From: Pseudomonadales bacterium
GTDB taxonomy: Bacteria > Pseudomonadota > Gammaproteobacteria > Pseudomonadales > IMCC2047
NCBI GenBank assembly: GCA_965230515.1
Contig: OZ246007.1
Coordinates: 3,251,012 to 3,315,011, forward strand
DNA: 64,000 nt
Reading direction: 5' to 3'
The translations under genes were made by a program, and so were the position numbers. This document shows positions 32,015 to 63,513 of this stretch, piece after piece. The notes beneath the pieces were generated by a model, which was given only the letters and a program-made list of their open reading frames with translations, made no database searches and was not told the origin of the DNA. Position 1 is the stretch's first letter; each line of letters starts with the position of its first letter.

Positions 32015-32359
32015 ATGACAAAGAAAGAACACAGACTGGGTGTTTCTGAAGCCAATCTGGTTAACAGGCATCTGAAAATTGAGACTGCACCCGCAGAATC
32101 TATTCGAGCGGCAGTCGCTGAAATCGATGAGATCTACGGGATGGATTCGGTTGCCTTCGACGAAAAACATTACCGGTTAGATCTGGCCTATGACGCTTCA
32201 AGGTTGTCGATAGAGGATGTGGAAAAGGTGATGACGACACATGGACTGGAGCTGAGCCATGGTTGGTGGACCCAACACAAGGAAAGTAACTACCGTTTTG
32301 TCGACCAGAACGTAAAAGACAACGCCAAGCATGAGCCATGGAGTTGCCATAAAAAGTAA
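32015..32359 (+). CDS. hypothetical protein with an HMA-like (ferredoxin-fold-looking) domain and a C-terminal CH motif
   Basis: GGAG lies 7 nt before ATG 32015. 114 aa. The region LDLAYDASRLSIEDVEKVMTTHGLEL...SCHKK is paralogous by eye to the C-terminal half of 48872-49369. Confidence 0.45.
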   Translation: MTKKEHRLGVSEANLVNRHLKIETAPAESIRAAVAEIDEIYGMDSVAFDEKHYRLDLAYDASRLSIEDVEKVMTTHGLELSHGWWTQHKESNYRFVDQNVKDNAKHEPWSCHKK

Positions 32360-32419
32360 CGTCATGTGTGCATGCACCAGCAACACCTCCAAGAGGCATG
32401 AAATGATGGGGATATCAGG

Positions 32420-33925
32420 GTGAGCAGACATATTCTACAAGCGGTGGCGATGGGCATTGACACCCATCAGGAGCCAGTTGTGTATATGCAGGAGGACTGC
32501 CATATCTGCCGCGCAGAGGGCTTTAACGCGAACACGCGCTTGTCAATCAGCACCAGAACTGAGCAGTTGATTGCGACGCTTAATGTGGTTAGAAACGATA
32601 AGCTATTAGTGGGACAAATCGGGTTGTCCAAGATTACGCAGCAACGTCTAGATATTAAGGATGGCGAGTCGGTAAGTGTCAGCCATGCACAGGTTGTGAG
32701 GTCATTAAGCGCAGTACGTAAAAAAATTTACGGTCATAAACTCAGTGATCAGGAGATTGCCGATATCGTCGAGGACATCAGCGCCCATCGCTATTCAGAT
32801 ATCGAAATCGCGAGTTTTCTTAGCGTATGTGCAGGCAGTCGCTTGGACGTGGATGAAATCATCGGGCTCACTCAGGCCATGGTAGCGTGCGGTAAACGAT
32901 TGAAATGGGCGGATCAAACAAAAGTTCTCGATAAACATTGCATTGGAGGATTGCCGGGCAACCGCACCACGCCTTTGGTGGTTTCCATAGTCAGCGCGGC
33001 GGGACTGACGATTCCCAAAACCTCGTCGCGAGCAATCACCTCTCCGGCGGGTACTGCGGATACCATGGAAGCACTGACTACCGTCAATCTGGAAATTACC
33101 GACATTCAACGTGTTGTAGCACAAACCCATGCCTGTCTCGTCTGGGGCGGGGCGGTGAATCTGAGTCCAGCTGATGATTTGTTGATTCGCATTGAACGGG
33201 CCCTGGACTTAGACGGCGAAGGACAGTTGATCGCCTCAGTGCTATCCAAAAAAATCGCCGCCGGTTCCACTCATGCGGTGATTGATATTCCCGTCGGCTC
33301 CACAGCTAAGGTGCGCTCGCAAAAAGATGCCGAGCGACTCTCTTCACTTTTTACCCAAGTGGGGGCTGCCTGTGGTATTCAAATTCGCTGCCTCATTACG
33401 GATGGTAGTCAACCGGTGGGACGAGGTATCGGCCCGGTAGAAGAAGCGCGCGATGTGTTGGCGGTATTGCAATGCGAGCACAATGCGCCACAGGATTTAC
33501 GAGAGCGCGCTTTATTTTTAGCGGCACATCTATTTTCACTCGCTTATTCAGAGCGTTATGAACAAGGGTTGGAAAGAGCAATCGCAATTTTGGATGAAGG
33601 TAAAGCCTGGCAGCAGTTTCAGCACATTTTGGCTGCACAGGGTGGGATGAAAGCCCTGCCTGACCCCAGCTACCAACATACCGAAGCGGCCACAACTGCG
33701 GGCACACTTACCGCTATCGATAATCGTCAACTCGCGCGCTTGGCGAAGCTGGCAGGTGCTCCGGCGACAGAGGCTGCGGGGATGCGTCTTCATACACGTG
33801 TCGGCGAAAAGATTGAGGCTGGACAGTCTTTATTTACCCTCTATTCCGATACGATCGGAGAGCAACAATACGCGATGGAGTTTTATCGTCAATCGATGAT
33901 TTTTACTATCGAGGAGGCGCAATGA
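32420..33925 (+). CDS. thymidine phosphorylase-family protein of the long AMP-phosphorylase-like type
   Basis: 501 aa. An N-terminal extension of about 85 aa (GIDTHQEPVVYMQEDCHICRAEGF...ATLNVV...GESVSVSHAQ) precedes the glycosyltransferase-3 core (DKHCIGGLPGNRTT; SSRAITSPAGTADTME). Confidence 0.82.
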   Translation: MSRHILQAVAMGIDTHQEPVVYMQEDCHICRAEGFNANTRLSISTRTEQLIATLNVVRNDKLLVGQIGLSKITQQRLDIKDGESVSVSHAQVVRSLSAVRKKIYGHKLSDQEIADIVEDISAHRYSDIEIASFLSVCAGSRLDVDEIIGLTQAMVACGKRLKWADQTKVLDKHCIGGLPGNRTTPLVVSIVSAAGLTIPKTSSRAITSPAGTADTMEALTTVNLEITDIQRVVAQTHACLVWGGAVNLSPADDLLIRIERALDLDGEGQLIASVLSKKIAAGSTHAVIDIPVGSTAKVRSQKDAERLSSLFTQVGAACGIQIRCLITDGSQPVGRGIGPVEEARDVLAVLQCEHNAPQDLRERALFLAAHLFSLAYSERYEQGLERAIAILDEGKAWQQFQHILAAQGGMKALPDPSYQHTEAATTAGTLTAIDNRQLARLAKLAGAPATEAAGMRLHTRVGEKIEAGQSLFTLYSDTIGEQQYAMEFYRQSMIFTIEEAQ

Positions 33926-34848
33926 GCGAAGCGACGGCTGTGAACGATAAATCTCCGCTGATATTTTCCCTGCACAATCATCCGTTGGTTGAATCTCTCG
34001 CTACTGCGATTGGTGGTCAGCGAGGCGACTTCAATGCCCGAAGGTTTCCCGATGGGGAGTCCTATCTGCGTATTCATTCTGCTGTAGAAAATCGCGCCTG
34101 TATTGTGGTGGCTGACCTGTCACACCCAAACACCAAATATCTACCGTTGTTGTTTTTATTGGAAACACTGCGGGAGCTGGGAGCAACGCAAGTGGGGTTA
34201 GTGGCGCCTTACCTCAGTTATATGCGTCAGGATCGCCGTTTTGTCGATGGGGAAGCGGTTACTTCACGTATTTTTGCCAAGTGCCTTTCTCAACATGCTG
34301 ATTGGCTGGTCACCGTCGATCCACATTTGCATCGCTATCATTCCCTGGATGAAATCTATTCCATACCCAGTCGTGTTGTGCAAGGGGCTCCGGCATTGGC
34401 GCACTGGCTCAAAACGCAAAGCAACCTATTGTTGGTTGGGCCGGACAGCGAAAGCGAGCAATGGGTTTCTGAGATTGCTGCCTTTAGTCAACATCCTTTT
34501 GAGATTGGAGAAAAACAGCGCTTCGGGGATCGCCATGTCGAAGTGATGCTGCCCGACATCAACGAATTCAGGGATAGAACGGCTGTGATTATCGACGACG
34601 TAATCTCCAGTGGGCAGACGATTTTGGAATGTGTTAAAACACTTCAGTCCAAAGGAATCGACAAGATTCAGTGTGTGGCGGTACACGGCATATTTGCCGA
34701 TCACTCCGATAAAACCTTACTGGCCTCAGGCCTGAGCCAGCTGGTCACGTCCAATACCATCCCCCATCCCTCCAATGCTATCGATATTACGTCGCAACTG
34801 ATTGCGCCCGTGATCAGCATGCTTAAATTGCCAGGACAATCATTATGA
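33922..34848 (+). CDS. ribose-phosphate diphosphokinase (PRPP synthetase)-like protein, divergent
   Basis: 308 aa with the PRPP-binding loop AVIIDDVISSGQTI. The R5P region reads VTVDPHLHRY, whereas E. coli Prs reads TVDLHAEQ. ATGA overlap with the upstream gene, and a GAGGAGG SD. Confidence 0.8.
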   Translation: MSEATAVNDKSPLIFSLHNHPLVESLATAIGGQRGDFNARRFPDGESYLRIHSAVENRACIVVADLSHPNTKYLPLLFLLETLRELGATQVGLVAPYLSYMRQDRRFVDGEAVTSRIFAKCLSQHADWLVTVDPHLHRYHSLDEIYSIPSRVVQGAPALAHWLKTQSNLLLVGPDSESEQWVSEIAAFSQHPFEIGEKQRFGDRHVEVMLPDINEFRDRTAVIIDDVISSGQTILECVKTLQSKGIDKIQCVAVHGIFADHSDKTLLASGLSQLVTSNTIPHPSNAIDITSQLIAPVISMLKLPGQSL

Positions 34849-36200
34849 AAATCACCTTTATCGGCGGTACCGAGACCGTTACCGGTTCAAAATTTCTGCT
34901 GGAAACCGACACGACAACTGTATTAGTCGATTGCGGTTTGTTCCAGGGCTACAAGTGGCTGCGGGAGCGCAATTGGCAAACCTTGCCTCTGGACATCGAC
35001 AAACTGGATGCGGTGCTGCTCACTCACGCACATCTGGATCACTCCGGCTATATCCCGGTGCTATACAAGTGTGGCTTTCGCGGCCCGGTGTTTACCCATC
35101 ACGCCACCAAGGCCCTGTGTCAGATCTTATTGGCCGACAGCGGCCATATCCAGGAGGAAGACACCAGGTATTACAGCAAACATAAACTGGGCAAGCACGC
35201 TCACCCTGAGTCGCTTTACGACCGCCAAACGGCGGAAGCCAGCATGACGCTATTTCAGTCCGTGGAGTTTGATGAACAGATCGAAGTCGGAGATATCCGT
35301 TTTTATCTGCAGCCCGCCGGGCATATTCTCGGTGCCGCCAGCATTATCGTGGAAGCGGAAGGGAAACGAATCGGCTTTTCTGGTGATGTCGGTCGCTTCG
35401 ATGATGTGCTGATGAACCCCCCTCGGCTATTGCCGGAGCTGGATCTGCTGTTGATGGAGTCCACTTACGGCAACCGCCGGCACGACACCCAAGATCCGTT
35501 TCAGCAGTTGGCGGAAATTGTTAACCGTGTCGCTAAAAGCGGCGGCGTGCTGCTGGTCCCGGCCTTTGCGGTAGGGCGGGCGCAGGCCTTGCAACATCTG
35601 TTGGCGACCCTGATGGATCAGGACGATATCCCCAAAATGCCGATCTATCTCGACAGCCCCATGGCGATCAAAGTATCGGATATTTTTTGCCAGTTCAGTG
35701 ACCAGCATCGGTTAAACCACGAGCAATGCTACCGCATGTGCGACTCCATCACTTATACCCGTACGGTGGATGATTCCAAGGCGATTGCGGGACAGGCTTT
35801 CCCCCATATTGTTATCGCTGGCAGCGGTATGGCTACCGGGGGTCGTATTCTCCACCATTTTAAACGCCTGTTAGGCAGCTCTAAAACCACGGTGCTGTTT
35901 ACCGGTTATCAGGCGGGCGGCACTCGCGGCGCAAAAATGCTGGAGGGTGTCGAGAGCATCAAAATTCACGGTGAGTGGATTTCAAATAATGCGCAGGTGG
36001 CGGTCTTGCACGGTTTGTCCGGACACGGCGATTACATGGAGATCGAGCAATGGCTCAAACAATCCGCATTACAAAAAAACATGTCGATTCAACTGGTTCA
36101 TGGTGATCCCGATGCCCTGGAAGGCATGCGCGATCATTTGCGACGCACCACGGCCTTCGATGTAGAGGTCGCCGGCTATCAAACAATACTCAAACTGTAG
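34845..36200 (+). CDS. MBL-fold beta-CASP nuclease (RNA-specificity-domain type)
   Basis: 451 aa with the HxHxDH motif LLTHAHLDHSGYIP, later GHILGAA, ESTYG and a C-terminal SGHGD typical of beta-CASP enzymes. ATGA overlap with the upstream gene. Confidence 0.82.
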   Translation: MKITFIGGTETVTGSKFLLETDTTTVLVDCGLFQGYKWLRERNWQTLPLDIDKLDAVLLTHAHLDHSGYIPVLYKCGFRGPVFTHHATKALCQILLADSGHIQEEDTRYYSKHKLGKHAHPESLYDRQTAEASMTLFQSVEFDEQIEVGDIRFYLQPAGHILGAASIIVEAEGKRIGFSGDVGRFDDVLMNPPRLLPELDLLLMESTYGNRRHDTQDPFQQLAEIVNRVAKSGGVLLVPAFAVGRAQALQHLLATLMDQDDIPKMPIYLDSPMAIKVSDIFCQFSDQHRLNHEQCYRMCDSITYTRTVDDSKAIAGQAFPHIVIAGSGMATGGRILHHFKRLLGSSKTTVLFTGYQAGGTRGAKMLEGVESIKIHGEWISNNAQVAVLHGLSGHGDYMEIEQWLKQSALQKNMSIQLVHGDPDALEGMRDHLRRTTAFDVEVAGYQTILKL

Positions 36201-36209
36201 GAGCCTGTT

Positions 36210-36668
36210 ATGCAAATTGAAACCTTAAAGGATGTGCTGAACTGGACCCGCGATTTTCATCAGCATTTGGCGAGCTGTTTACACCACTGCGACGACCGGA
36301 ATCAAAGTGAACGTGCACGACTTTTGCTGGAGTACCTTGCTGAGCATGAACAAAAACTGGTTGCGGTGCTTGACAGCTTTGCACAAAGCGCGGGCGTTAA
36401 TGCATTGAACACTTGGTGTTACGAATATCTCGATAAACACCCCATTGTTCGTCATGTCCAATGCGATCAGCCTTTCACGCAAATGAACACCGAGGAAATC
36501 ATTTCGGAAATAACAGGGCAGCACAGCCAGGTGGTAGACCTTTACCGCTATTTGTACAGCCGGGCGGAAACCGATTCAGCGCGAAACTTATTGGCTCAGT
36601 TATTGGACTTGGAGGAACATGAAACGATGCGTATGACGCAAAGCGCCAACCGCCTGGAAGATATATAA
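36210..36668 (+). CDS. hypothetical helical protein (His/Cys-containing), last gene of the four-gene operon
   Basis: 152 aa. GGAG SD lies 9 nt after the upstream stop. All-helical-looking, with FHQHLASCLHHCDD. No family recognised. Confidence 0.5.
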   Translation: MQIETLKDVLNWTRDFHQHLASCLHHCDDRNQSERARLLLEYLAEHEQKLVAVLDSFAQSAGVNALNTWCYEYLDKHPIVRHVQCDQPFTQMNTEEIISEITGQHSQVVDLYRYLYSRAETDSARNLLAQLLDLEEHETMRMTQSANRLEDI

Positions 36669-36750
36669 ATCGCAAGTTTTATTGCTGTTGTTTTAACACA
36701 AAGAGTATCTGTCATTGCAATTATTTATTACCAAGTAAAGGGGATACCCC

Positions 36751-37005
36751 ATGAATCTTAATACCTACAAATTTTGTTTGGCGTCAGCATTCAGTTTTTC
36801 AGTTATTTGGATTGTTTGCAGTCTATTGGTCTGGCTCTTTCCGGAAATGATGATGAGTATGGCGGGTGATATGTTGCACGGCGACCTGTCGTCAATTGAC
36901 TGGCAGCTTTCTTTTAAGGGTGTTTTGACAGGTCTGGCGGCATGGGCCGTAACTGCAGGCGTTATCGGATGGCTGTTGGCATTTTTTTACAACAGGCTCT
37001 TATAA
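36751..37005 (+). CDS. small two-TM membrane protein (DUF5676-like)
   Basis: 84 aa with two hydrophobic helices. AAAGGGGA SD upstream. Confidence 0.45.
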   Translation: MNLNTYKFCLASAFSFSVIWIVCSLLVWLFPEMMMSMAGDMLHGDLSSIDWQLSFKGVLTGLAAWAVTAGVIGWLLAFFYNRLL

Positions 37006-38427: not shown

Positions 38428-38539
38428 GGTTATTAAGGATAGAAATCCCCACAGTGCTTGGCCCTAGATAGGCACAGCAGCCATGTGTCTATTGAACCAG
38501 GATCTGACAACCCATTGGAGTAGAAAAAGGTAATCCATT

Positions 38540-40366: not shown

Positions 40367-40377
40367 GAGAAAGGTAC

Positions 40378-41148: not shown

Positions 41149-41197
41149 GGAGGCGCACCGTGAATCAATTGAGTGGAGAGATTGCCGGTATTTTGGC

Positions 41198-41219
41198 GAT
41201 CACTGTGATCGTAATCACG
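41198..41219 (+). promoter_or_regulatory. candidate CRP/FNR-family binding site upstream of the pta-ackA-xfp block
   Basis: TGTGA-TCGTAA-TCACG (41204-41219) contains the perfect palindrome GTGAT-CGTA-ATCAC. An overlapping palindrome GATCAC-T-GTGATC lies at 41198-41210. No clear -10 at the canonical distance. Confidence 0.3.
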
Positions 41220-54544: not shown

Positions 54545-54590
54545 ATCAGTACCACTAACTGACATTCATACGCAAACAGGGAGAAGAGCC

Positions 54591-56836: not shown

Positions 56837-57033
56837 TAGCACGGTTCTGCCTCGGTCGTTGGTAGATAAGGTCTATGCAATTTACGACATAAGTAAAGCG
56901 CATGAAGAAAAGACATCTCAAGCGTTCAGCTATCAACGTCACCGGCGATATTACCGCTTGTCTGGTGCTGGACAGGCTATTGTCGAACAAATATGAAATT
57001 TACCATAACAGCACGTGAGTTGGAGGATTAAAG

Positions 57034-57693
57034 ATGGAACAAACGATACAACATTCAGGCGCGTGGGCACTCGCGATCATTATGATCGTAGTGATTTCCT
57101 GGCTTTTTTATCGCTACCTGGCACCCAAATCCTGGCATGAATGGGCCAGTGCGGGCGTGGTGCAGGCATTTATTATCGCGCTATACGCTGAAATGTATGG
57201 ATTCCCATTAACCATATATTTGCTGTCACGGTTCTTTGGCCTTGATCGGTACGATCTGAATGCCAGCCTATGGTCCACCTTATTGGGCGTGGGGGAGACG
57301 GGCATGATGATTTCGATGATTCTGGGCTACGCCTTGGCTTTTCTCGGGATTGGCATTTTTTTCCAGGGTTGGAGGCAGGTACATAGCTCACGCCAGCAAA
57401 ACACCCTGGTGACCGATGGTTTGTATCGCTTTGTTCGACATCCCCAATACACTGGCCTGTTTATCGCGCTGTTTGGTGAGGGTGTGGTGCACTGGCCCAC
57501 TCTGTTTTCTGTGGGACTTTTCCCGGTGATCGTATTTGCCTATTACATGCTGGCCCGAAAGGAAGAGCGCCAGGTGCTGGCGGAATTTGGCGAGACCTAT
57601 CGCGCCTACCAGCAACGGGTGCCTATGTTTATTCCTAGGCGGGCCCAATGGCGGGCGTTTGCCGGTAGTTCCAGCTTGAATTCCGATGATTGA
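57034..57693 (+). CDS. ICMT/PEMT-family membrane methyltransferase (copy 2)
   Basis: 219 aa. FIIALYAEMYGFPLTIYLLS and FVRHPQYTGLFIALFG...KEERQVLAEFGETYRAYQQRVP parallel copy 1 at 30760-31410. Confidence 0.72.
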   Translation: MEQTIQHSGAWALAIIMIVVISWLFYRYLAPKSWHEWASAGVVQAFIIALYAEMYGFPLTIYLLSRFFGLDRYDLNASLWSTLLGVGETGMMISMILGYALAFLGIGIFFQGWRQVHSSRQQNTLVTDGLYRFVRHPQYTGLFIALFGEGVVHWPTLFSVGLFPVIVFAYYMLARKEERQVLAEFGETYRAYQQRVPMFIPRRAQWRAFAGSSSLNSDD

Positions 57694-58840
57694 ATATTGC
57701 TCTGGGGCGAGCGTGACTCCTGACGGGCGGGAAAATCGATTTAACGGCAGCGAATGCGTTATGTTATCCGATCATGCTTCGGAAACGTTTCAGCTGTTTA
57801 CCGAGGGCGATACTTTATATACATCCATGCTTTCGGCGATAGCGGGTGCTAAAGAGAGTATTCGACTGGAATGCTATATCTTTGCCGATGACGCGGTAGG
57901 CAAACGGTTTTGTCAGGCGCTTATTGAACGGGCGCAGGCGGGTATTGCGGTAAGGGTGCATGTTGATGCGGCGGGTTCGCTGTTCTGGTTTTCGCGCAAG
58001 ATGCAAAATCACTTGCGTTGCAACGGTGTGAAATTGCGCTGGTTTCACCGCTGGAGCTGGCGCAGGCCCTGGCGCTATAACCGTCGTAATCATCGCAAGT
58101 TGCTAATTGTGGATGATCGAGTCGTCTTTCTCGGTGGCTTCAATATTCATCAGGAAAATTCTAGGGAGTGTTACGGGGATGCGCGCTGGCGTGATACTCA
58201 TGTGAGTTTTGGCGGCTCACTTGTCAACGTGGCCACCCAGTTGTTTGACGCATTCTGGCGAGGTCGTCTGCGTTGGCAGCCCGTGCGAAAGGAAGCGGGT
58301 AGCAGACTGCTACACAATCATACGCTGTCCTGCCGCCACCGCTTGCGATGTGTGTACGGCGCAGCATTCGACAAGGCGAAGACGTTTATTTACCTGACCA
58401 CCCCTTATTTTGTCCCCGATAGTCATACCCTCAGGCAATTGTGTCAGGCCGCTGAGCGCGGTGTGGATGTCAGACTACTGGTTCCCGGTAAGAGTGACGT
58501 GCATATCGCGCGCTGGGCTGCCCGTCATATTTATGCCTCCTTGCTCGATTCTGGTGTGCGCATTTATGAGTACCTGCCGAGAATGCTGCACGCAAAGACG
58601 GTTGTGATCGATGGTAACTGGTCGATGGTGGGAACGGCCAATCTGGATTACCGCAGTTTATTTATTAACTACGAACTCAATCTGGCGACAGCCGATAGCG
58701 GGTTGGCCGCCGAACTTAAAGAACAATTCATGCAGGATTTATCGTTGTCGGAGGGCATACTGTCGCAGGACTGGGAGCGGCGCGAAGGGGTATCGCGATG
58801 GTTGGAACGGATTGCCATGATGGTTAAACGCTGGCTGTGA
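57686..58840 (+). CDS. phospholipase D-family cardiolipin synthase (ClsB-like)
   Basis: Two HKD motifs, HRKLLIVDD and HAKTVVIDGNWSMVGTANLD. The start could instead be ATG 57761. Confidence 0.83.
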   Translation: MIEYCSGASVTPDGRENRFNGSECVMLSDHASETFQLFTEGDTLYTSMLSAIAGAKESIRLECYIFADDAVGKRFCQALIERAQAGIAVRVHVDAAGSLFWFSRKMQNHLRCNGVKLRWFHRWSWRRPWRYNRRNHRKLLIVDDRVVFLGGFNIHQENSRECYGDARWRDTHVSFGGSLVNVATQLFDAFWRGRLRWQPVRKEAGSRLLHNHTLSCRHRLRCVYGAAFDKAKTFIYLTTPYFVPDSHTLRQLCQAAERGVDVRLLVPGKSDVHIARWAARHIYASLLDSGVRIYEYLPRMLHAKTVVIDGNWSMVGTANLDYRSLFINYELNLATADSGLAAELKEQFMQDLSLSEGILSQDWERREGVSRWLERIAMMVKRWL

Positions 58841-61149
58841 ATAGATTGGTGCCAATGATTCCAATACAAACAATAGCCATATTGGCCGCCGCCTTTCTGT
58901 TGATGATCGGCAATGGTTGGGCTGGCGCCACCCAGTATTCGGAAAGTAGCAACGTAAAGCGAATCCTGGATACACGCTGCGTGGTGTGCCATGGCTGTTA
59001 TGACGCACCCTGTCAGTTAAAACTTGGTGCTTACGAGGGGCTCCTGCGCGGAGCGACGCCACAAACTATCTACAACCCCTCCAGGTTCTCAGAAGACGTC
59101 ACCACAAGGCTGTTTATTGACGGCCGTTCCATCACCGACTGGCGTAAGCTAGGCTTTCACGAGGTGATTACCGCCACCTCAGCTTCGCCCAAAAATACCG
59201 ACTATCTGGACGACGTGCTATACCGACTTGTTACACGCAAACCCGAGAATACCTTTCCCTCTAGAGGAAGATTGTCCACTGACTTTCCGTTGGATATTAA
59301 CCGTGAATTGTCCTGTGCGGCAACAATCGAAGAAGTTGATGATTTTCTTGCTAAACAGCCGATGGCCGCCATGCCCTATGGCATGGCGGCCTTACCGCGC
59401 CAGGAACAACTGCAGTTGGAAAACTGGATAAAACAGGGCTATCCGGATTTTGATACACCTCTTGATCTGCCATCCAGCGTGATCGCGCAAGTCGACCGGT
59501 GGGAGGAGTTTTTCAACCAAGCAACACCCCGGCATAAACTGGTTGCCCGCTATTTGTATGAACATTTGTTTCTGGGACATTTGGCGATTACTGAGCAGAG
59601 ACAAGCCTTTTACTTTCGGCTGATCCGGTCTTCGACACCGACGGCTGTTACGCCGAATGAAATCGCAACCCGTCGCCCTAACAGTGACCCCGGGGAAAAG
59701 CCGTTTTACTATCGACTCATTCCTGTCAGGGAAACACTCCTGGATAAAACACATATCGGCTATTCACTTGACCAGCGTCGTATGGCTCGCTGGAACTACC
59801 TGTTTTTCTCCAGTGACTGGAAGGTGTCTGAGTCGGCTGGCTACACCACGAAAAATGCGACCAATCCGTTCTTGACGTTCAGTGATATTCCCGCCGATGC
59901 CCGTTATCGATTCATGCTGGATAACGTCCAATTTTTTGTTGAATCCTTTATCAAAGGTCCGGTCTGTCGCGGGCAGGTCGCGTTGAATGTGATCAACGAT
60001 TATTTCTTTGTGGCCTTCCTGTCGCCGGAGTATGACTTGTCGGTGGTCGATAACGCCTATCTTTCTAACGCGATCCCCCTTCTGTACCTTCCGCCGACAT
60101 CCGCCGGATCTCTGGAATTTGCGGCGTTGTGGCACGAGGGGCTTCACGGCCACCGGCGCTACCTGGAATACCGTGACAATGCCTACCGGATCCACGCACT
60201 CACCCGGCAGGGTTTGCCGACAACAGCCATCTGGAATGGCGACAATCAATCGACACCGGTGCTCACCGTGTTCAGGCATTTTGACAGCGCTTCTGTGTCC
60301 AAGGGGGTGATTGGCGAGAGTCCTAACACCGTATGGGTTATTGATTACCCGACGCTGGAACGTATTTACTACGACCTGGTGGTGAACTTCGATGTGTTTG
60401 GCAGCGTGTCCCACCAAATACTGACCCGGATGTACATGGACTATCTGCGCATGGAAAGCGAAGGATTGTTTCTATCCTTCCTGCCCATCGCAGACAGAGA
60501 GCCCATTCTTAAACGTTGGTATCGGGGGGCGTTGGCGCAGGCTAAGGTATTTTATGGCCATTCCAAGTTGTTGATTGATACCCCTGCGGCGATCCGGTAT
60601 GCCGGTCATGATGTCAAAGGTGAACTGATCGAGATGATCCGTGATCGATCTTCATTCACGCGGGATAAAGCCGTTCCCATCGGTGGTCGCGTACCTACAG
60701 CCCTTAATCCTCTGGATCACCTGTCAGCAAAGCAGTCGGTCTTGATACGCAACCTGCCCGAACTGAGTTATGTGGTGATTCATAACGAAGACAGTGAGAT
60801 TGAGCAGGTGGTATCGATGATCATCAACAAGGCTCACACGAATGTGTCATTTATTTTCGGGGAAGACAATCGTCGTAAACCTGAAGAAGATACGATGATG
60901 TTGGTGGGCGGGGCTATCGGTAGTTATCCGAATTTTATTTTTTGGGTGGATCGTAAAGATCTGGAAAAGTTTACCCGCGAAGCAAATAACATTACCGGTC
61001 AGGTGAGTATGGAGCGATGGATCGGGCGCTATGGTGTCCGCAGAACCGACCGTCGAATTTGGTCGGTCCTAGATAATCTTCACCATTATCGACGACGTGT
61101 GGGTGGAGACGAGGGTCTCCTGGATGTGAGTCGTTATGACAATTTATAA
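58837..61149 (+). CDS. cti: fatty acid cis/trans isomerase (haem c-containing Cti)
   Basis: 770 aa with a signal peptide. The N-terminal haem motif RCVVCHGCYDAPCQLKL is characteristic of Cti. The GTG start overlaps the upstream stop. Alternative ATG at 58855. Confidence 0.87.
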   Translation: MNRLVPMIPIQTIAILAAAFLLMIGNGWAGATQYSESSNVKRILDTRCVVCHGCYDAPCQLKLGAYEGLLRGATPQTIYNPSRFSEDVTTRLFIDGRSITDWRKLGFHEVITATSASPKNTDYLDDVLYRLVTRKPENTFPSRGRLSTDFPLDINRELSCAATIEEVDDFLAKQPMAAMPYGMAALPRQEQLQLENWIKQGYPDFDTPLDLPSSVIAQVDRWEEFFNQATPRHKLVARYLYEHLFLGHLAITEQRQAFYFRLIRSSTPTAVTPNEIATRRPNSDPGEKPFYYRLIPVRETLLDKTHIGYSLDQRRMARWNYLFFSSDWKVSESAGYTTKNATNPFLTFSDIPADARYRFMLDNVQFFVESFIKGPVCRGQVALNVINDYFFVAFLSPEYDLSVVDNAYLSNAIPLLYLPPTSAGSLEFAALWHEGLHGHRRYLEYRDNAYRIHALTRQGLPTTAIWNGDNQSTPVLTVFRHFDSASVSKGVIGESPNTVWVIDYPTLERIYYDLVVNFDVFGSVSHQILTRMYMDYLRMESEGLFLSFLPIADREPILKRWYRGALAQAKVFYGHSKLLIDTPAAIRYAGHDVKGELIEMIRDRSSFTRDKAVPIGGRVPTALNPLDHLSAKQSVLIRNLPELSYVVIHNEDSEIEQVVSMIINKAHTNVSFIFGEDNRRKPEEDTMMLVGGAIGSYPNFIFWVDRKDLEKFTREANNITGQVSMERWIGRYGVRRTDRRIWSVLDNLHHYRRRVGGDEGLLDVSRYDNL

Positions 61150-61166
61150 CAGATTAATTCTAAAAG

Positions 61167-62333
61167 GTGCTGAGTTTGCTTTTTAATACGGCCTTATTTT
61201 TGACGGCGACAATCCTGCTTATTTCCTGTGATGGGATATTTAAAAGATTTAAATTGCCTACTGCGGCGGTTACTATTTTAATGGGTATGTTGATTGGTCC
61301 CTCTGGTCTTAATGTTATAGGCTACGATCAGCCGGTAAAACTGCTTGCGGAGTTGGCCGTCGTGATCATTCTTTTTTCAGCAGGCTATGAAATTCGCTGG
61401 TCACAATTTGTTGCCGCCATTCGGCCAGGTTTGTTAGTGGGGGTTGCGGGAATTGTATTGAGTGTCTTGCTGGGTTTCTTGGCCAGCTATTCACAGACAG
61501 AGCGCCTTGATGAGGCTCTCTATATCGGTATTGCCTTGGCGGCTACTAGCATCGGTCTCAGTGTGCCGATGTTACATAAAGCAGGAATGCTTGATTCTAA
61601 AGTTGGTCAGATATTACTGGCTGCGGCAATAGTCGATGATATTTTAGCGCTGTACTTATTATCGGCAGCGCATCTCGGGTTAACTACTAATAATGGGCTG
61701 GGGCATATTCTTTATTCCCTGGTCTTGAGTTTATTGATGCTATCTGTTTTATGTGGGGCTGTGTGGTGTCTAAAAGCATTGCTCTATAAAACGATTATCG
61801 TTGAGATGGCGTGGGCTAGAAGATTAGTAGCGCTGATTATGGCGATGATCTCCGCCTGGATAAGTGATCGGCTTGGTCTTTCTCCGGTTGTCGGAGGGTT
61901 CTCGGCCGGGATGATGTTTTCTCTCTCCCGAGATGAGAGTCGGGACAAGGATAGCCGGTATTTTGACAATATAGCCGATGGGGTCGCGCCACTTTTTTTC
62001 CTAAGTGTCGGAATTCAGATCACCGGAATCGATTTTGGCAAGGGAGAAGTGTTAACGTATTCAATATTGGTTGTTGCTGCGGCCATTGTAGGGAAGCTCT
62101 TTTGCCCCTGGGTTATATCTTCCATGCTCCCATTAAGGGAGAAGTATTTGCTGGGCGTTTCATTGTTGCCTCGTGGCGAAGTAGGGCTGGTCGTCGCTAG
62201 CATTGGCTTGCAGCAAGCACATATTTCACACCACGGAATGATTGCGCTGGTGTCCATGACGTTAGTAACAGCGTTGATTTCCTCTGTCTTTATTCCGGTA
62301 TTGTCCAAACAAATCGGCACCGGCCGGAGATAG
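61167..62333 (+). CDS. cation:proton antiporter (CPA/KefB-NhaP-like membrane domain)
   Basis: 388 aa with about 11-12 TM helices. LFSAGYEI and AATSIG..V..L motifs resemble Na_H_exchanger-family proteins. Confidence 0.7.
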   Translation: MLSLLFNTALFLTATILLISCDGIFKRFKLPTAAVTILMGMLIGPSGLNVIGYDQPVKLLAELAVVIILFSAGYEIRWSQFVAAIRPGLLVGVAGIVLSVLLGFLASYSQTERLDEALYIGIALAATSIGLSVPMLHKAGMLDSKVGQILLAAAIVDDILALYLLSAAHLGLTTNNGLGHILYSLVLSLLMLSVLCGAVWCLKALLYKTIIVEMAWARRLVALIMAMISAWISDRLGLSPVVGGFSAGMMFSLSRDESRDKDSRYFDNIADGVAPLFFLSVGIQITGIDFGKGEVLTYSILVVAAAIVGKLFCPWVISSMLPLREKYLLGVSLLPRGEVGLVVASIGLQQAHISHHGMIALVSMTLVTALISSVFIPVLSKQIGTGRR

Positions 62334-62339
62334 CTTCTG

Positions 62340-63038
62340 ATGGATATGCAATATACTTACTTCGTCTGGAGTCTCATTCTGTTGCTGATTTGGCTGGTCG
62401 TTTTTATTGCGCAAAGGACTCGGCGAGTAAAGATGATGACGATGAGTATCTGGACGGCGCCGCTGGGCCTGTCTGAACCGCTGTTTTATCCGGACTATTG
62501 GTTTCCACCGACCTTGTTTCGTTTGGGTGAAGCTACTGGCTTCGATATCGAAAGCCTGATTTTTTCATTTGCGGTGGGTGGTTTGGCGAGTAGTCTCTTT
62601 GGCGTGTCGAATAAATACATGCTCAAGCCGCTGCCCGATTGCGATAAATCCAGCAAACGTCATCGATATCATAAGTTCCTGCTTAGTTCGCCGGTGTGGC
62701 TGTTTCTCGGGCTTGAGGGACTTACAACATGGAATGCCATTTATACCGCTTCACTGGGTTTGCTGGGAGGTGCGATAGCGACGGTAGTTTGTCGGCCAGA
62801 TTTGTTATCTAAGGCAATAAAAGGTGCCCTGATGTTTACGGGATTTTATTTTCTGTTTTTTAGTGCCATGACGGCTTCACATCCGGGCTTTGTGGCGCTG
62901 TATTGGAATCATGCCAATATTAGCGGTATACAAGTTGCCGGTATTCCAGTGGAAGAATTGTTATTTGCATTCTCCCTTGGCGCGATGTGGAGTGCGTTCT
63001 ATGAACACCGATACTGGTTGCGTGTGAAAATACCGTAA
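62340..63038 (+). CDS. polytopic membrane protein, possibly lycopene-cyclase-domain family
   Basis: 232 aa with about 6 TM helices. GIPVEELLFAFSLGAMW resembles the PxEE..FF motif of lycopene cyclase domains. Weak assignment. Confidence 0.35.
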   Translation: MDMQYTYFVWSLILLLIWLVVFIAQRTRRVKMMTMSIWTAPLGLSEPLFYPDYWFPPTLFRLGEATGFDIESLIFSFAVGGLASSLFGVSNKYMLKPLPDCDKSSKRHRYHKFLLSSPVWLFLGLEGLTTWNAIYTASLGLLGGAIATVVCRPDLLSKAIKGALMFTGFYFLFFSAMTASHPGFVALYWNHANISGIQVAGIPVEELLFAFSLGAMWSAFYEHRYWLRVKIP

Positions 63039-63063
63039 GCCAAATTGTTAACGATAAGGTGAT

Positions 63064-63513
63064 GTGATGATTCTGATAATTTTATTTCCTTTTCTATTGG
63101 TATTAACCGTGACTGTGCATTATGGGTTTTTGACACGATTGATGGTTATTCTTGATACCGGTTGGGCGCAGGCAATTAAATTGATCGCCATTATTTGCGG
63201 GTTATTTGTTGCCCATGTCGCCGAAGTAGTGGTTTATACGTTTGTGTATCATTTTTCGCATCTGATTCCCGGGATTGGCAAACTACCGGGGATTAATTTC
63301 GATGACTGGATCAATGCCCTGTATTTTTCATTTGCAGCCTACAGTTCGTTGGGTGCCGGTGACTTATCTACCGCGGGATGGTTAAAAATTCTCTATGGTT
63401 TGGAGGCCATTAATGGCCTGGTGCTAATCACTTGGTCAGCCTCTTTTTCGCTACTGGCGATGAACCGAATGAAATTTTGCCAATCCTGTTCAGAGAGTAG
63501 TTCAACGGGATGA
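63064..63513 (+). CDS. small ion-channel protein (two-TM pore-loop type)
   Basis: 149 aa. ALYFSFAAYSSLGAGDLS resembles a degenerate K-channel pore/selectivity loop (T-x-G-Y-G-D) flanked by TM helices. Confidence 0.45.
   Translation: MMILIILFPFLLVLTVTVHYGFLTRLMVILDTGWAQAIKLIAIICGLFVAHVAEVVVYTFVYHFSHLIPGIGKLPGINFDDWINALYFSFAAYSSLGAGDLSTAGWLKILYGLEAINGLVLITWSASFSLLAMNRMKFCQSCSESSSTG

What the first reader, a model, noticed from the sequence alone, without database searches (positions are those of the whole stretch)
32015..63513. A 31-kb, 29-gene one-strand island reads as an integrated dormancy/low-energy survival system carried by an ICE
All 29 genes are co-directional. Eight junctions overlap, most other gaps are under 115 bp, and no mobility or metal-resistance gene interrupts them. 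The functions fall into complementary layers. (a) Nucleic-acid/nucleotide breakdown: beta-CASP, AMP-phosphorylase-like and Prs-like enzymes. (b) Oxygen-independent ATP and redox balancing: phosphoketolase, AckA, Pta, GAPDH, PhaC, MaoC and FabI. (c) Respiratory-chain retuning: the orphan Rieske protein. (d) Membrane-protein quality control: HflKC and FtsH. (e) Ion and energy economy: MgtC, the antiporter, the channel and the permease. (f) Lipid rigidification: Cfa, Cls and Cti. Hypothesis: pentose phosphate released from RNA or nucleotides is cleaved by phosphoketolase to acetyl-P and GAP for substrate-level ATP while the envelope is sealed. As a unit this goes beyond what I recall of lxa-type loci, and no universal stress protein genes or cognate regulator are in the window. 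It may be an undescribed transferable persistence module.
Basis: inference. Interest (0 to 1): 0.75.

Follow-up and report, generated by a model that had tools for sequence, protein, structure and literature searches.

The report
Mobile low-energy and envelope survival array
This is a real block of about 29 same-strand genes carried next to conjugation and metal-resistance genes; most of it recurs in the same order in many marine bacteria, and it joins oxygen-independent ATP-making enzymes to membrane-repair and lipid-remodelling genes, but it is a modular variant of known low-oxygen and stress islands rather than a wholly new system.

Summary
In detail: 29 + strand ORFs with the stated functions lie at 31976-63513, with no mobility or efflux gene among them. 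Two points need correction. First, the conserved unit starts upstream, at a merR-copA-cupredoxin-PII-DUF2933-ICMT cluster (26952-31410). Second, that MerR is a candidate cognate regulator.

About 24 of the genes recur in the same order in Haliea, Alcanivorax and many metagenome contigs. The 10 kb from HflK to Cfa is about 100% identical to them in DNA. The APC-PhaC-FabI-MaoC/Pta-AckA block was found only in this genome. Around the divergent phosphoketolase, 39 of 50 species loci hold at least 3 other island families, in shuffled order, across gamma-, beta- and alphaproteobacteria.

Gene families with the same names are FixK2-dependent and microoxia-induced in Bradyrhizobium, and some lie in the Burkholderia lxa locus. 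FNR boxes precede the module in Marinobacter and in beta versions, but not here.

My reading is a modular, recombining ICE cargo array for survival when respiration fails, through low O2 and/or copper. It would make ATP by substrate-level phosphorylation through acetyl-P and maintain the envelope. The RNA-to-acetate route is plausible but untested. I rate it a new variant of a known kind, interest about 0.55.

The parts
300..4599 (+). ICE conjugation genes: a TraU-like TIGR03756 protein, a TIGR03755 protein, a small ORF, and a TraG_N protein
   Evidence: Pfam; NCBIfam (378.9 and 488.4 bits, both above cutoff)
26880..26900 (+). Imperfect dyad ACCTGTGTCTTAGACGCAGGT lying between TTGACC and TAGGCT upstream of merR. 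It is a candidate MerR-type operator/promoter.
   Evidence: Read from sequence. It occurs once in the window, against 0.04 matches expected by chance. Function is inferred.
26952..27362 (+). MerR-family regulator of a distinct subfamily (Cys in 'CPLVR', C-terminal 'PTGHMICHLIE'). Candidate cognate regulator.
   Evidence: Pfam. NCBIfam scores are below every equivalog cutoff. The same subfamily lies beside or inside the array in gamma and beta loci.
27423..31410 (+). CopA-like P1B ATPase with HMA domain (27423-29729), cupredoxin-like protein (29742-30095), P-II-like protein (30120-30470), DUF2933 (30463-30747), ICMT-like methyltransferase (30760-31410)
   Evidence: Pfam and NCBIfam. The order is the same upstream of TP-Prs in L010-L015, L022 and L097. 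The cluster is described as copper-induced and island-borne in Alteromonas (PMC8478169).
31283..32359 (+). Two conserved proteins with no family hit: h207 (31283-31906) and h127 (31976-32359; duplicated in relatives)
   Evidence: No Pfam or NCBIfam hit. Families f28 and f22 recur in 11 and 13 species loci.
32420..37005 (+). Nucleotide/RNA module: TP-family phosphorylase (32420-33925), Prs-like protein (33922-34848), beta-CASP RNase (34845-36200), ferritin-like h152 (36210-36668), DUF5676 (36751-37005)
   Evidence: TP: TIGR02645 at 577 bits is above cutoff, while AMP_phos at 479.7 is below its cutoff of 535; the best PDB match is 4GA5 AMP phosphorylase, E 5e-99. Prs: subfamily NF005537, with archaeal Prs as the best PDB match. 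h152: model pLDDT 85.7, ferritin-like/YciF/Dps fold with TM about 0.55-0.59. The module is 84-92% identical in protein to Haliea, Alcanivorax and a Methylophaga plasmid.
37108..43890 (+). Block found only in this genome: APC permease (37108-38427), class I-like PhaC (38540-40366), FabI (40378-41148), MaoC hydratase-phosphotransacylase fusion (41279-42703), acetate/propionate-family kinase (42676-43890)
   Evidence: Pfam and NCBIfam. There is no DNA match to the closest relative L097 across 36467-43988. PhaC and MaoC-Pta are singletons at 90% clustering. The nearest relatives found, at 49-58% protein identity, are in a USP-rich lxa-like cluster on Sphingopyxis plasmid pDB-2.
43924..46877 (+). 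Divergent phosphoketolase-family enzyme (43924-46299) and an orphan bc1-type Rieske subunit with TAT signal (46296-46877)
   Evidence: Xfp scores only 70-112 bits against phosphoketolase models and structures, where cutoffs are 777-1518 bits. Most catalytic His/Glu/Asn positions aligned with PDB phosphoketolases are kept; GDG reads SDG, and the first His of HNGFSHQD aligns with Lys. Rieske: TIGR01416 at 221 bits, above cutoff, with no cytochrome b/c1 gene adjacent.
46931..54544 (+). Membrane-protein quality-control module: HflK, HflC, YHS-domain protein, FtsH, MgtC-DUF4010, LemA, TPM, TPM
   Evidence: Pfam. About 100% DNA identity to contigs from many samples. The exact HflK and HflC sequences are on 250 and 264 contigs and are labelled MULTISPECIES Gammaproteobacteria.
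54429..63513 (+). GAPDH, Cfa, ICMT-like methyltransferase, cardiolipin synthase (PLD type), fatty-acid cis/trans isomerase, Na+/H+ exchanger, lycopene-cyclase-domain membrane protein, K+-type ion channel
   Evidence: Pfam. The order is the same in L085-L091, L096 and L097. DNA identity to the widespread variant is about 100% up to 56.9 kb, then 88-92%, then 68-85%.

Best explanation
The interval is the larger part of a modular cargo array that lies beside ICE conjugation genes and inside a metal-resistance region. The array really begins at merR-copA (26952). It is built from exchangeable modules.

(1) A copper-efflux head: MerR, P1B ATPase, cupredoxin, P-II, DUF2933, ICMT.

(2) A feeder module of archaeal-type enzymes: a beta-CASP RNase, an AMP-phosphorylase-like phosphorylase and a Prs-like kinase, plus a ferritin-like protein. 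I infer that these turn RNA or nucleotides into ribose phosphates.

(3) A core of a divergent phosphoketolase plus an acetate kinase, which I infer makes acetyl-phosphate and then ATP. GAPDH would take the triose.

(4) In this genome only, an inserted PhaC-FabI-MaoC/Pta-kinase block. I infer that it links PHA and acyl-CoA to acyl-phosphate, ATP and NADH re-oxidation.

(5) An alternative Rieske subunit.

(6) Envelope maintenance: HflKC-FtsH with YHS, MgtC, LemA-TPM; then Cfa, Cls, Cti, a cation/proton exchanger and a channel.

The most likely role is survival, not growth, when respiration fails. Low oxygen is one candidate cause. Copper(I) poisoning is another, and by established knowledge it is worst without oxygen. 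In alpha- and betaproteobacteria and in Marinobacter the same modules sit behind FNR/FixK/Anr boxes. In this marine lineage they have been fused downstream of a MerR-controlled copper operon and lack such boxes, so control has probably shifted to MerR or to read-through transcription.

What is shown: gene content, synteny, mobility, mosaic recombination and motif presence or absence. What is inferred: every flux, the regulator assignment and the phenotype.
For: Conserved, mobile unit. The order from AckA-Xfp to the channel is identical in 9 distinct contigs, and the left half is colinear in L004, L007, L009 and L020. Segment 46.8-56.9 kb is about 100% identical in DNA to them, while neighbouring segments are 70-92% identical. 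Exact HflK and HflC are on 250 and 264 contigs.

Association across classes. Of 50 species-representative loci with at least 20 kb held around the divergent Xfp, 39 hold at least 3 and 28 hold at least 5 other island families. Counts among all 80 loci are AckA 43, Prs 41, TP 37, bCASP 31, ICMT 23, Cfa 19, FtsH 18, DUF2933 18, MgtC 16 and MerR 13. Twenty-eight copies of a P1B ATPase at least 40% identical to the window's lie in about 27 of the loci held.

Interchangeable feeders. On the M. thalassica plasmid a glycogen module (glgP, isoamylase, pgm, pgi, tkt, FBA) sits in front of AckA-Xfp-Cfa-ICMT-Cls-Cti-NaH. On a Roseovarius plasmid an arginine deiminase pathway sits with AckA-MaoC/Pta-FabI, CopA-DUF2933-ICMT and petA.

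Low-oxygen link. FixK2 boxes and FixK2- or microoxia-dependent expression are reported for Xfp-AckA, TP-Prs-MBL and DUF2933-ICMT in Bradyrhizobium. The lxa locus is induced by low oxygen, is involved in anoxic persistence (PMC3721108; as summarised in PMC9104464), and contains AckA, PhaC, Pta and a metal-dependent RNase. Perfect FNR boxes lie upstream of h152-TP-Prs-bCASP-Xfp in Marinobacter and upstream of DUF2933 in beta loci.

Copper link. The head cluster is copper-induced in Alteromonas. CusRS and HMA genes sit beside the beta versions. Metal genes flank the array on both sides.

Enzyme identities.
Against: There are no expression or phenotype data for this array or its close relatives. 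No promoter, terminator, riboswitch or shared motif was found inside it, so operon structure and regulator are unknown.

Modules occur apart and in many combinations. The 29-gene set is unique, and the closest relative carries deletions of HflC, MgtC through Cfa and part of FtsH. This shows that the parts are dispensable individually.

The phosphoketolase is so divergent that its substrate is unknown. No R15P isomerase, Rpi or Rpe lies in the cluster, so the path from nucleotide to ketose phosphate is incomplete on paper. The role of the Prs-like enzyme is unclear, and it could serve nucleotide salvage instead.

Homology to the Bradyrhizobium and Burkholderia genes was matched by family name and through intermediates, not by direct sequence comparison.

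The 80 loci are the best tblastn hits, so they are biased towards relatives of this array.
Confidence: 0.55

Rival explanations
1. The array is a copper/metal-stress system and not a hypoxia or dormancy system. MerR senses metal and drives the whole array. Fe-S-free, respiration-independent ATP supply (phosphoketolase, kinases) powers the P-type ATPase while copper poisons dehydratases and the respiratory chain. The spare Rieske subunit replaces a periplasmic Fe-S protein damaged by copper. FtsH/HflKC, Cfa, Cls and Cti repair and stiffen a metal-damaged envelope.
For: Synteny with merR-copA-cupredoxin-DUF2933-ICMT is conserved in the close relatives that have enough upstream flank. A MerR of one subfamily is embedded next to TP-Prs or Xfp in gamma and beta loci (L001, L018, L028, L035, L055). 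CusRS and HMA genes sit beside the beta versions. A YHS metal-binding domain protein lies between HflC and FtsH. Metal genes lie on both sides. The head cluster is copper-induced in Alteromonas. No FNR box lies in the array.
Against: Gene families with the same names are FixK2- and low-oxygen-controlled where they have been studied. FNR boxes precede them in Marinobacter and in beta loci. The Alteromonas study does not mention the downstream modules (0 occurrences). MerR control beyond copA is untested, and only one operator-like dyad exists. The two signals need not exclude each other.
Confidence: 0.3
2. There is no integrated system. The interval is a pile-up of independent accessory operons in the cargo zone of an ICE. 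They are co-directional because of element architecture and leading-strand bias, and each has its own unrelated use.
For: Co-directionality runs from 14948 to 63513 with positive GC skew. Identity to relatives is mosaic, with sharp breakpoints. Modules occur separately and reshuffled. A 7.5 kb block is found only in this genome. The closest relative has lost several genes.
Against: The same families regroup around the divergent Xfp in gamma-, beta- and alphaproteobacteria despite rearrangement. Thirty-nine of 50 loci hold at least 3 of them. By my estimate this is far above the roughly 0.5% per family expected for single-copy genes in a 20 kb window of a 4 Mb genome. Colinear alleles only 70% identical in DNA keep the same order, which argues for selection on the arrangement. 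Dispersed homologous families share one regulator in Bradyrhizobium.
Confidence: 0.15
3. The TP-Prs-beta-CASP module serves nucleotide salvage or PRPP supply. It would keep the adenylate pool and repair capacity in non-growing cells rather than feed pentose to phosphoketolase. Its adjacency to Xfp-AckA would then reflect shared regulation only.
For: The Prs-like protein matches a PRPP-synthase subfamily above cutoff. The TP fold family also contains PRPP-using TrpD. The AMP-phosphorylase equivalog cutoff is not reached (479.7 against 535). No R15P isomerase, Rpi or Rpe is present in the array. In Bradyrhizobium TP-Prs-MBL and Xfp-AckA are separate operons.
Against: TP, Prs and bCASP lie within 10 kb of the divergent Xfp in 37, 41 and 31 of 80 loci, often directly upstream in one run. 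A glycogen-catabolic module occupies the equivalent position on a Methylophaga plasmid, which favours a catabolic feeder role.
Confidence: 0.25

Closest known systems
Low-oxygen-activated (lxa) locus of Burkholderia cenocepacia J2315 (BCAM0275a-0323; Sass et al. 2013, PMC3721108)
   Same: Both are large accessory clusters combining acetate kinase, phosphate acyltransferase, class I PHA synthase, a metal-dependent (beta-CASP type) RNase, a cation P-type ATPase and membrane/transport genes. The lxa locus is proposed to give limited ATP and redox balance without oxygen. A USP-rich lxa-like cluster on Sphingopyxis plasmid pDB-2 carries TP-Prs and PhaC-MaoC/Pta-AckA at 47-58% identity to the window proteins.
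   Different: The window has no USP genes, no alpha-crystallin, no alcohol dehydrogenases, no class II ribonucleotide reductase or ribokinase, no CRP/Anr regulator or two-component system, and no lxa/FNR motif. The lxa paper does not mention phosphoketolase, FtsH or HflK; Cfa, Cls and Cti were not searched for there. [quoted passage not shown]
FixK2 (CRP/FNR) microoxic regulon of Bradyrhizobium diazoefficiens (PMC9104804, PMC6515984) and the predicted alphaproteobacterial FixK regulon (PMC2908626)
   Same: It contains the operons phosphoketolase-acetate kinase (bll2518-2517), TP family-Prs-MBL hydrolase (bll3117-3115) and DUF2933-ICMT-hypothetical (bsl7992-bll7990). These are the same three gene sets that lie in one run here.
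   Different: There they are dispersed chromosomal operons, each with its own FixK2 box. Here they are fused into one co-directional array without such boxes, behind merR-copA and beside ICE genes. Orthology was matched by family names, not by direct alignment.
merR-copA-cupredoxin-DUF2933-ICMT cluster on genomic islands of Alteromonas and other marine bacteria (PMC8478169)
   Same: The gene order is the same as window 26952-31410. That cluster is island- or plasmid-borne and copper-induced.
   Different: That description ends at the methyltransferase. The downstream nucleotide, phosphoketolase and envelope modules are not part of it (0 mentions).
[quoted passage not shown]
   Same: It is a horizontally transmitted, modular stress island carrying extra copies (xenologs) of core genes: FtsH, cardiolipin synthase, a cation/proton antiporter (KefB) and a MerR-like regulator. 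It confers survival rather than growth.
   Different: The window has none of the sHsp20, ClpG/ClpK, YfdX, HdeD, Trx, HtpX-like or DegP genes that define tLST, and tLST has no metabolic modules. The resemblance is one of concept and a few families.
Archaeal AMP / pentose bisphosphate pathway (AMP phosphorylase, R15P isomerase, type III RuBisCO)
   Same: The TP-family protein is full length with the N-terminal domain. Its best solved relative is T. kodakarensis AMP phosphorylase (4GA5, E 5e-99). The Prs-like and beta-CASP partners are also closest to archaeal forms.
   Different: The score is below the AMP-phosphorylase equivalog cutoff (479.7 against 535). No R15P isomerase or RuBisCO is present. 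A divergent phosphoketolase and acetate kinase occupy the downstream position.

Membership tests
lxa-type low-oxygen locus | Several universal stress protein (USP) genes and an alpha-crystallin/Hsp20 gene | tested here: not met
   No Usp or HSP20 domain was found in any ORF scanned in the window (Pfam).
lxa-type low-oxygen locus | The lxa motif (TTGA-N6-TCAA, an FNR/Anr-type box) at many intergenic points, plus an Anr-like CRP regulator | tested here: not met
   TTGATN4ATCAA with up to 1 mismatch gives 5 hits against 3.0 expected, all intragenic. TTGAN6TCAA gives 2 hits against 1.5 expected, and neither is in an intergenic region of the array. No CRP-family gene was found.
lxa-type low-oxygen locus | Fermentative and storage-polymer genes: acetate kinase, phosphate acyltransferase, PHA synthase; plus a metal-dependent RNase | tested here: met
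   AckA, MaoC-Pta, PhaC and a beta-CASP RNase are present. They are 49-58% identical to those of a USP-rich plasmid cluster.
lxa-type low-oxygen locus | Strong, specific induction by low oxygen and a role in anoxic persistence | not testable with these tools
   This needs transcriptomics and mutants in a carrier strain.
FNR/FixK-controlled microoxic modules | An FNR/FixK box upstream of Xfp-AckA, TP-Prs-MBL and DUF2933-ICMT | tested here: not met
   Absent in the window. Present in relatives: Marinobacter L017 and L019, and beta loci L036-L039, L046 and L075.
ICE (PFGI-1/ICEclc-type) cargo | Conjugation genes of the ICE-specific TIGR037xx set next to the cargo | tested here: met
   TIGR03756 (378.9 bits) and TIGR03755 (488.4 bits) score above cutoff, and TraG_N is present, at 300-4599.
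ICE (PFGI-1/ICEclc-type) cargo | Integrase, relaxase and att/tRNA borders enclosing the array | tested here: inconclusive
   The window has no tRNA and no integrase was seen. The window ends 0.5 kb after the array, and L084 shows only metal genes for a further 3.3 kb.
tLST / TLPQC stress island | sHsp20-ClpG/ClpK protein-homeostasis core, plus YfdX/HdeD and Trx/DegP modules | tested here: not met
   None of these domains is present in the window. Only FtsH, Cls, an antiporter and a MerR-family gene are shared.
AMP phosphorylase (TIGR03327) | Score at or above the equivalog cutoff | tested here: not met
   479.7 bits against a cutoff of 535. The protein does pass the sister model TIGR02645, 'putative thymidine phosphorylase' (577.5 against 434.6).
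Xu5P/F6P phosphoketolase | Family-level score and catalytic residues | tested here: inconclusive
   Pfam XFP and XFP_N pass (141 and 42.7 bits). No XFP_C match was reported. NCBIfam phosphoketolase models give at most 112 bits against cutoffs of 777-1518. The aligned His/Glu/Asn positions are mostly kept, but GDG reads SDG and one His aligns with Lys. The acetate kinase gene is adjacent in 43 of 80 loci.
merR-copA-cupredoxin-DUF2933-ICMT copper cluster | The five genes in this order | tested here: met
   Window 26952-31410, with an extra P-II-like gene. Compared with PMC8478169.

The most novel reading that the evidence does not exclude
A horizontally mobile survival regulon for respiratory failure in which control has been moved from FNR/FixK to a copper-type MerR. 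Its core would be an undescribed bacterial route from RNA/nucleotides to ATP: a beta-CASP RNase, an archaeal-type NMP phosphorylase and a Prs-like enzyme feeding a divergent phosphoketolase clade (possibly with a non-canonical ketose phosphate substrate) and acetate kinase. Glycogen, PHA and arginine modules would be plug-in alternatives. An alternative Rieske subunit and an FtsH/HflKC-lipid module would keep the membrane alive.
Probability: 0.2. Interest if true: 0.8.

Novelty: new variant of a known kind. Interest (0 to 1): 0.55.

Why it matters
If the reading is right, oxygen- and respiration-independent energy maintenance is a transferable trait that spreads with metal resistance among marine bacteria, including hydrocarbon-degrading genera (Alcanivorax, Marinobacter, Thalassolituus, and probably Porticoccus). 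Copies of the exact HflK and HflC proteins were seen on 250 and 264 contigs. It would also give culturable organisms and a compact gene set for working out what the widespread TP-Prs-beta-CASP triad and the divergent phosphoketolase clade do. These genes are induced by low oxygen in Bradyrhizobium, and a related RNase lies in the Burkholderia lxa locus, yet none of the papers read here assigns them a biochemistry. The apparent swap of FNR boxes for a MerR/copper context is a concrete case of regulatory rewiring of a stress regulon on a mobile element. It would also tie together two stresses, copper(I) and anoxia, that are known to reinforce each other.

Tried and rejected
FNR/Anr/lxa motif in the array: searched in two forms. 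Hits were at chance level and none lies in an intergenic region of the array.

Shared operator: the MerR-type dyad at 26880 has no second copy. Short inverted repeats near other gaps were uninformative.

Sigma-70 promoter and terminator scans: promoter-like sites were fewer than in shuffles (13 against 21.6; 8 against 19.6). Terminator-like sites were 27 against 20.5 and 34 against 22.3, nearly all weak and inside genes. None is usable.

Rfam (riboswitches such as PRPP/ykkC or the Mg box) and tRNA searches: nothing found.

Plasmid megablast of 24 kb: only fragments matched. These nevertheless led to useful contexts.

Exact-protein look-ups of the channel and Cls failed, probably because the called starts differ.

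The lxa gene list could not be obtained. No supplement is held and later lxa papers lack the locus tags I sought, so TP, Prs or Xfp in lxa itself could not be checked.

Literature searches for this gene combination found no paper with 4 of the 5 or 5 of the 6 search terms.

The tLST identity was rejected on gene content.

The NCBI label 'ATPase' for h152 was rejected. The protein has no ATPase motif or family hit, and its model has a ferritin-like fold.

Full report
OBSERVATION. The ORF list and the Pfam/NCBIfam scans confirm 29 + strand ORFs between 31976 and 63513. In order they are hyp127, a thymidine-phosphorylase-family protein, a Prs-like protein, a beta-CASP MBL RNase, hyp152, DUF5676, an APC permease, PhaC, FabI, a MaoC-phosphotransacylase fusion, an acetate/propionate kinase, a phosphoketolase-family protein, a TAT-signal Rieske protein, HflK, HflC, a YHS protein, FtsH, MgtC-DUF4010, LemA, two TPM proteins, GAPDH, Cfa, an ICMT-like methyltransferase, a PLD-type cardiolipin synthase, Cti, a Na+/H+ exchanger, a lycopene-cyclase-domain protein and an ion channel. 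Junction overlaps number 13 with maximal ORFs, and I estimate about 8 with the starts called in relatives. Only two gaps exceed 115 bp. No mobility gene, efflux gene or USP gene lies inside. A Logan assembly from another run reproduces two stretches at 100% identity, so the junctions there are not assembly artefacts.

The co-directional run is wider than reported. It spans 14948-63513 with positive GC skew throughout.

SURROUNDINGS. ICE-specific conjugation proteins (TIGR03756, TIGR03755, TraG_N) lie at 300-4599. They are followed by a czcCBA-like set and a CDF transporter on the - strand, then a cusCBA-like set (20500-26850). Next come MerR (26952), a CopA-like P1B ATPase with HMA domain (27423), cupredoxin, a P-II-like protein, DUF2933 and an ICMT-like protein. 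Beyond the window end, the same strain's contig continues with a divergent MerR and HMA genes. The array is therefore sandwiched in metal-resistance cargo beside ICE genes. The ICE borders are not in view, and there is no tRNA.

The exact TPM protein carries the NCBI name 'Porticoccus sp.' and lies on a 3.58 Mb contig. That is the likely source, but it is a hint only.

COMPARATIVE GENOMICS. I scanned one genome per GTDB species with the phosphoketolase. I then mapped the window proteins onto the 80 loci and clustered all their ORFs.

In marine gammaproteobacteria (Haliea salexigens, Alcanivorax nanhaiticus, Kangiella, Thalassolituus, Microbulbifer, MAGs) the recurrent order is P1B, cupredoxin, P-II, DUF2933, ICMT, h207, h127, (APC), TP, Prs, bCASP, h152, AckA, Xfp. 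This is followed in several by Rieske, HflK, HflC, YHS, FtsH, MgtC, LemA, TPM, TPM, GAPDH and Cfa.

A look-up of the exact TPM protein returned 9 distinct contigs in which everything from AckA-Xfp to the ion channel is in the window's order. The only variation is a dicarboxylate symporter inserted between Cfa and ICMT. The flanks are PPK2 or an RND adaptor.

DNA identity to this widespread variant is 70-76% over 44-46.8 kb, about 100% over 46.8-56.9 kb, 88-92% over 57-61 kb, and 68-85% over 61-63.5 kb. The breakpoint near 46.8 kb is sharp.

The closest relative (Xfp at least 90% identical; MAG GCA_021773395.1) has the same head and tail at 91-98% DNA identity. It lacks any match to 36467-43988, and it carries deletions leaving an HflK fragment and a truncated FtsH. 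PhaC and MaoC-Pta are singletons at 90% clustering among about 15 billion proteins.

So about 24 genes form a colinear, recombining, widely transferred array. The APC-PhaC-FabI-MaoC/Pta-AckA block is an insertion or replacement found only in this genome. Its nearest relatives, at 49-58% protein identity, lie in a USP-rich lxa-like cluster on the conjugative Sphingopyxis plasmid pDB-2. That cluster also holds TP-Prs, MgtC and Hsp20.

ASSOCIATION BEYOND THE CLOSE RELATIVES. Among the 80 loci, the families most often found within 10 kb of the divergent Xfp are AckA 43, Prs 41, TP 37, P-type ATPase 31, bCASP 31, ICMT 23, Cfa 19, FtsH 18, DUF2933 18, MgtC 16, h152 14, MerR 13, APC 13, YHS 9 and Rieske 8. 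Twenty-eight P-type ATPase copies across all loci held are at least 40% identical to the window's P1B. Of the 50 loci with at least 20 kb held, 39 hold at least 3 and 28 hold at least 5 other island families, and 6 hold none.

The order differs by lineage. Achromobacter, Hydrogenophaga and Xylophilus have CusR, CusS, DUF2933, HMA, DUF3141, an unknown gene, AckA, further genes, Cfa, Xfp, TetR, an unknown gene, MgtC, a GAPDH-like gene, an ABC1 kinase, a 2-hydroxyacid dehydrogenase, DUF6629, Prs and TP. Maricaulis has MerR, P1B, APC, further genes, a porin-like gene, cytochrome c, Rieske, Xfp, P-II, Cfa and, on the opposite strand, AckA, Prs, TP, bCASP and FtsH.

Repeated regrouping after rearrangement is the classical signature of functional coupling. 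The caveat is that the 80 loci are the best tblastn hits, so they are enriched for relatives.

INTERCHANGEABLE FEEDERS. On the Methylophaga thalassica megaplasmid the run is MerR, several genes, a P-type ATPase, FBA, isoamylase, pgm, pgi, tkt, glgP, AckA, Xfp, Cfa, ICMT, Cls, Cti, NaH and LycCyc. Glycogen catabolism there occupies the place of the nucleotide module.

On a Roseovarius conjugative plasmid, DUF5676, DUF3141, AckA, MaoC/Pta, FabI, CopA, DUF2933 and ICMT are followed by arginine deiminase, ornithine carbamoyltransferase, carbamate kinase, cytochrome c and petA.

On the M. pinxianii plasmid, MerR, HMA, TP, Prs, bCASP, h152 and DUF5676 stand alone among copper genes.

The common theme is substrate-level ATP formation joined to a copper ATPase cluster on mobile DNA.

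ENZYME IDENTITIES. The TP-family protein passes TIGR02645 (577 bits) but not the AMP-phosphorylase equivalog (479.7 against 535). Its best solved relative is T. kodakarensis AMP phosphorylase, aligned from residue 63.

The Prs-like protein passes subfamily NF005537 and is closest to archaeal Prs structures. The beta-CASP protein resembles the aCPSF1/Cas14 core, far below cutoffs.

The phosphoketolase is very divergent, at 70-112 bits against cutoffs of 777-1518. In the alignment to PDB phosphoketolases it keeps most of the conserved His, Glu and Asn positions. GDG reads SDG, and the first His of the HNGFSHQD motif aligns with Lys. Its near-constant pairing with an acetate kinase argues that acetyl-phosphate is the product, but the sugar substrate is open.

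The Rieske protein passes the bc1 iron-sulfur-subunit equivalog (221 bits), and no cytochrome b/c1 gene lies nearby. MaoC-Pta passes the 'bifunctional enoyl-CoA hydratase/phosphate acetyltransferase' model and also resembles phosphate butyryltransferases.

h152 has no family and is labelled 'ATPase' in NCBI records. It has invariant or near-invariant His, Cys and Glu positions. Its model is confident (pLDDT 85.7), with a ferritin-like/YciF/Dps four-helix-bundle fold at modest TM scores of about 0.55-0.59. I read it as a metal-binding helper or sensor. This is inference.

REGULATION. The lxa locus and the Bradyrhizobium operons are controlled through TTGA-N6-TCAA boxes. In the window such boxes are at chance level and none lies in an intergenic region of the array. 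One box at 17299 lies upstream of an unknown ORF, a porin-like gene and a cytochrome c gene; homologues of the last two also lie near Xfp in Maricaulis.

By contrast, perfect boxes precede h152-TP-Prs-bCASP-Xfp in two Marinobacter species, and they precede DUF2933-HMA-DUF3141-AckA in six beta loci.

The window's MerR belongs to a subfamily with a Cys in 'CP.VR' and a C-terminal 'P.G.M(I/V)CHLIE'. This subfamily is found beside or inside the array in gamma and beta loci (L001, L018, L028, L035, L044/54, L055). An operator-like dyad sits between -35-like and -10-like hexamers upstream of merR. I therefore think control has shifted from FNR to MerR or to read-through in this lineage. This is inference, because promoter, terminator and Rfam scans gave nothing usable.

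LITERATURE. In B. diazoefficiens, phosphoketolase and the MBL-Prs-TP triad rise under microoxia at transcript and protein level (PMC6515984). The operons bll2518-2517, bll3117-3115 and bsl7992-bll7990 are FixK2-dependent and carry FixK2 boxes (PMC9104804).

A predicted pan-alphaproteobacterial FixK regulon includes a phosphoketolase, Hsp20, a CBS protein and a zinc alcohol dehydrogenase. The predicted FNR regulon includes a heavy-metal P-type ATPase (PMC2908626).

The lxa locus (PMC3721108) holds AckA, PhaC, Pta, a metal-dependent RNase and a cation ATPase, together with USPs and Anr-like regulators.

The merR-copA-cupredoxin-DUF2933-ICMT cluster is copper-induced and island-borne in Alteromonas (PMC8478169).

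tLST is the conceptual analogue for the envelope half (PMC8290217).

Full-text searches for the combination seen here found no paper with 4 of the 5 or 5 of the 6 search terms.

MECHANISM (commitment). I think the array supports non-growing survival when respiration fails.

Shown: gene content, conserved synteny, mobility and recombination, motif presence or absence, and family memberships.

Inferred, in decreasing confidence:
- Xfp plus AckA yield ATP through acetyl-phosphate, with GAPDH taking the triose.
- Endogenous polymers are the carbon source. Here that means RNA or nucleotides through the beta-CASP RNase and an NMP phosphorylase, and PHA through PhaC, MaoC/Pta, FabI and the kinase, with FabI re-oxidising NADH. 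Host Rpi/Rpe or an unknown step would supply the ketose phosphate.
- The spare Rieske subunit adapts or repairs the bc1 complex.
- HflKC-FtsH with YHS, MgtC and LemA-TPM manages membrane proteins and ATP use.
- Cfa, Cls, Cti, the exchanger and the channel stabilise the bilayer and ion gradients.

The trigger is unresolved between low oxygen and copper(I). Copper is more toxic without oxygen (established knowledge), so a joint role is reasonable.

VERDICT. The array is not an lxa locus (no USPs, no lxa motif, no Anr regulator) and not tLST. I class it as a new, apparently undescribed variant that fuses known low-oxygen modules, a copper-efflux head and envelope modules beside ICE genes. Interest is 0.55.

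Noticed in passing
window 17299-17312: This is the only intergenic perfect FNR-type box in the window (TTGACTTATGTCAA). It lies upstream of an unknown ORF (17453-17860), a porin-like gene (18051-19340) and a class I cytochrome c gene (19355-19972). Homologues of the porin-like and cytochrome c genes also lie next to the divergent Xfp in Maricaulis and other loci.
   Followed up: partly
window 46800 and 56900 (breakpoints): DNA identity to the widespread variant jumps from about 75% to 100% near 46.8 kb, between the Rieske gene and HflK. It drops to about 91% near 56.9 kb, in the Cfa-ICMT gap. That gap is also where some variants carry an inserted dicarboxylate symporter. This looks like recent allelic replacement of a 10 kb segment.
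   Followed up: yes
window 36210-36668 (h152): A conserved 152-aa protein with no Pfam or NCBIfam family, labelled 'ATPase' in NCBI records. It has invariant or near-invariant H17, C23, C27, H46, E47, C70, H82, C85, H105, E135, H137 and E138. Its confident model has a ferritin-like/YciF/Dps-like four-helix bundle; CopM is among the weaker matches.
   Followed up: partly
window 43924-46299: The phosphoketolase belongs to a very divergent clade, scoring at most 112 bits against curated phosphoketolase models. The ThDP-motif GDG reads SDG, and the first His of the HNGFSHQD motif aligns with Lys. Substrate specificity may differ from Xu5P/F6P.
   Followed up: partly
L096 (Methylophaga thalassica plasmid NZ_CP143310.1, 8.8-37 kb of the record): This variant array has a glycogen-breakdown and sugar-phosphate module (FBA, isoamylase, pgm, pgi, tkt, glgP) preceding AckA-Xfp, with PPK2 genes at both ends. 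HflKC-antiporter-channel is transcribed divergently.
   Followed up: partly
L094 (Roseovarius pelagicus plasmid NZ_CP106739.1, 93-108 kb of the record): One run holds DUF5676, DUF3141, AckA, MaoC/Pta, FabI, CopA, DUF2933, ICMT, YfcC, arginine deiminase, OTC, carbamate kinase, cytochrome c and petA. A second oxygen-independent ATP pathway is thus joined to the same copper head and to an orphan Rieske gene.
   Followed up: no
L097 (MAG GCA_021773395.1 contig JAJFKB010000002.1): This closest relative of the window array shows decay: an HflK fragment of 101 aa and FtsH truncated to 319 aa. HflC and the genes from MgtC to Cfa are absent. The head, the nucleotide module, Xfp-Rieske and the lipid/ion tail are intact.
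   Followed up: yes
window 30120-30470: A P-II-like small protein sits between the cupredoxin-like gene and DUF2933. It recurs in 12 species loci but is not part of the published five-gene copper cluster.
   Followed up: no
window 5891-13493 (- strand): A second heavy-metal set lies on the opposite strand: an RND pump of 1047 aa, an adaptor, an outer-membrane factor and a CDF transporter. It sits between the ICE conjugation genes and the co-directional run.
   Followed up: no
L084 2744-4166 (3.3 kb beyond the window end): Directly after the ion channel the source strain carries a divergently oriented MerR of another subfamily and an HMA-domain gene, so metal genes resume at once.
   Followed up: partly
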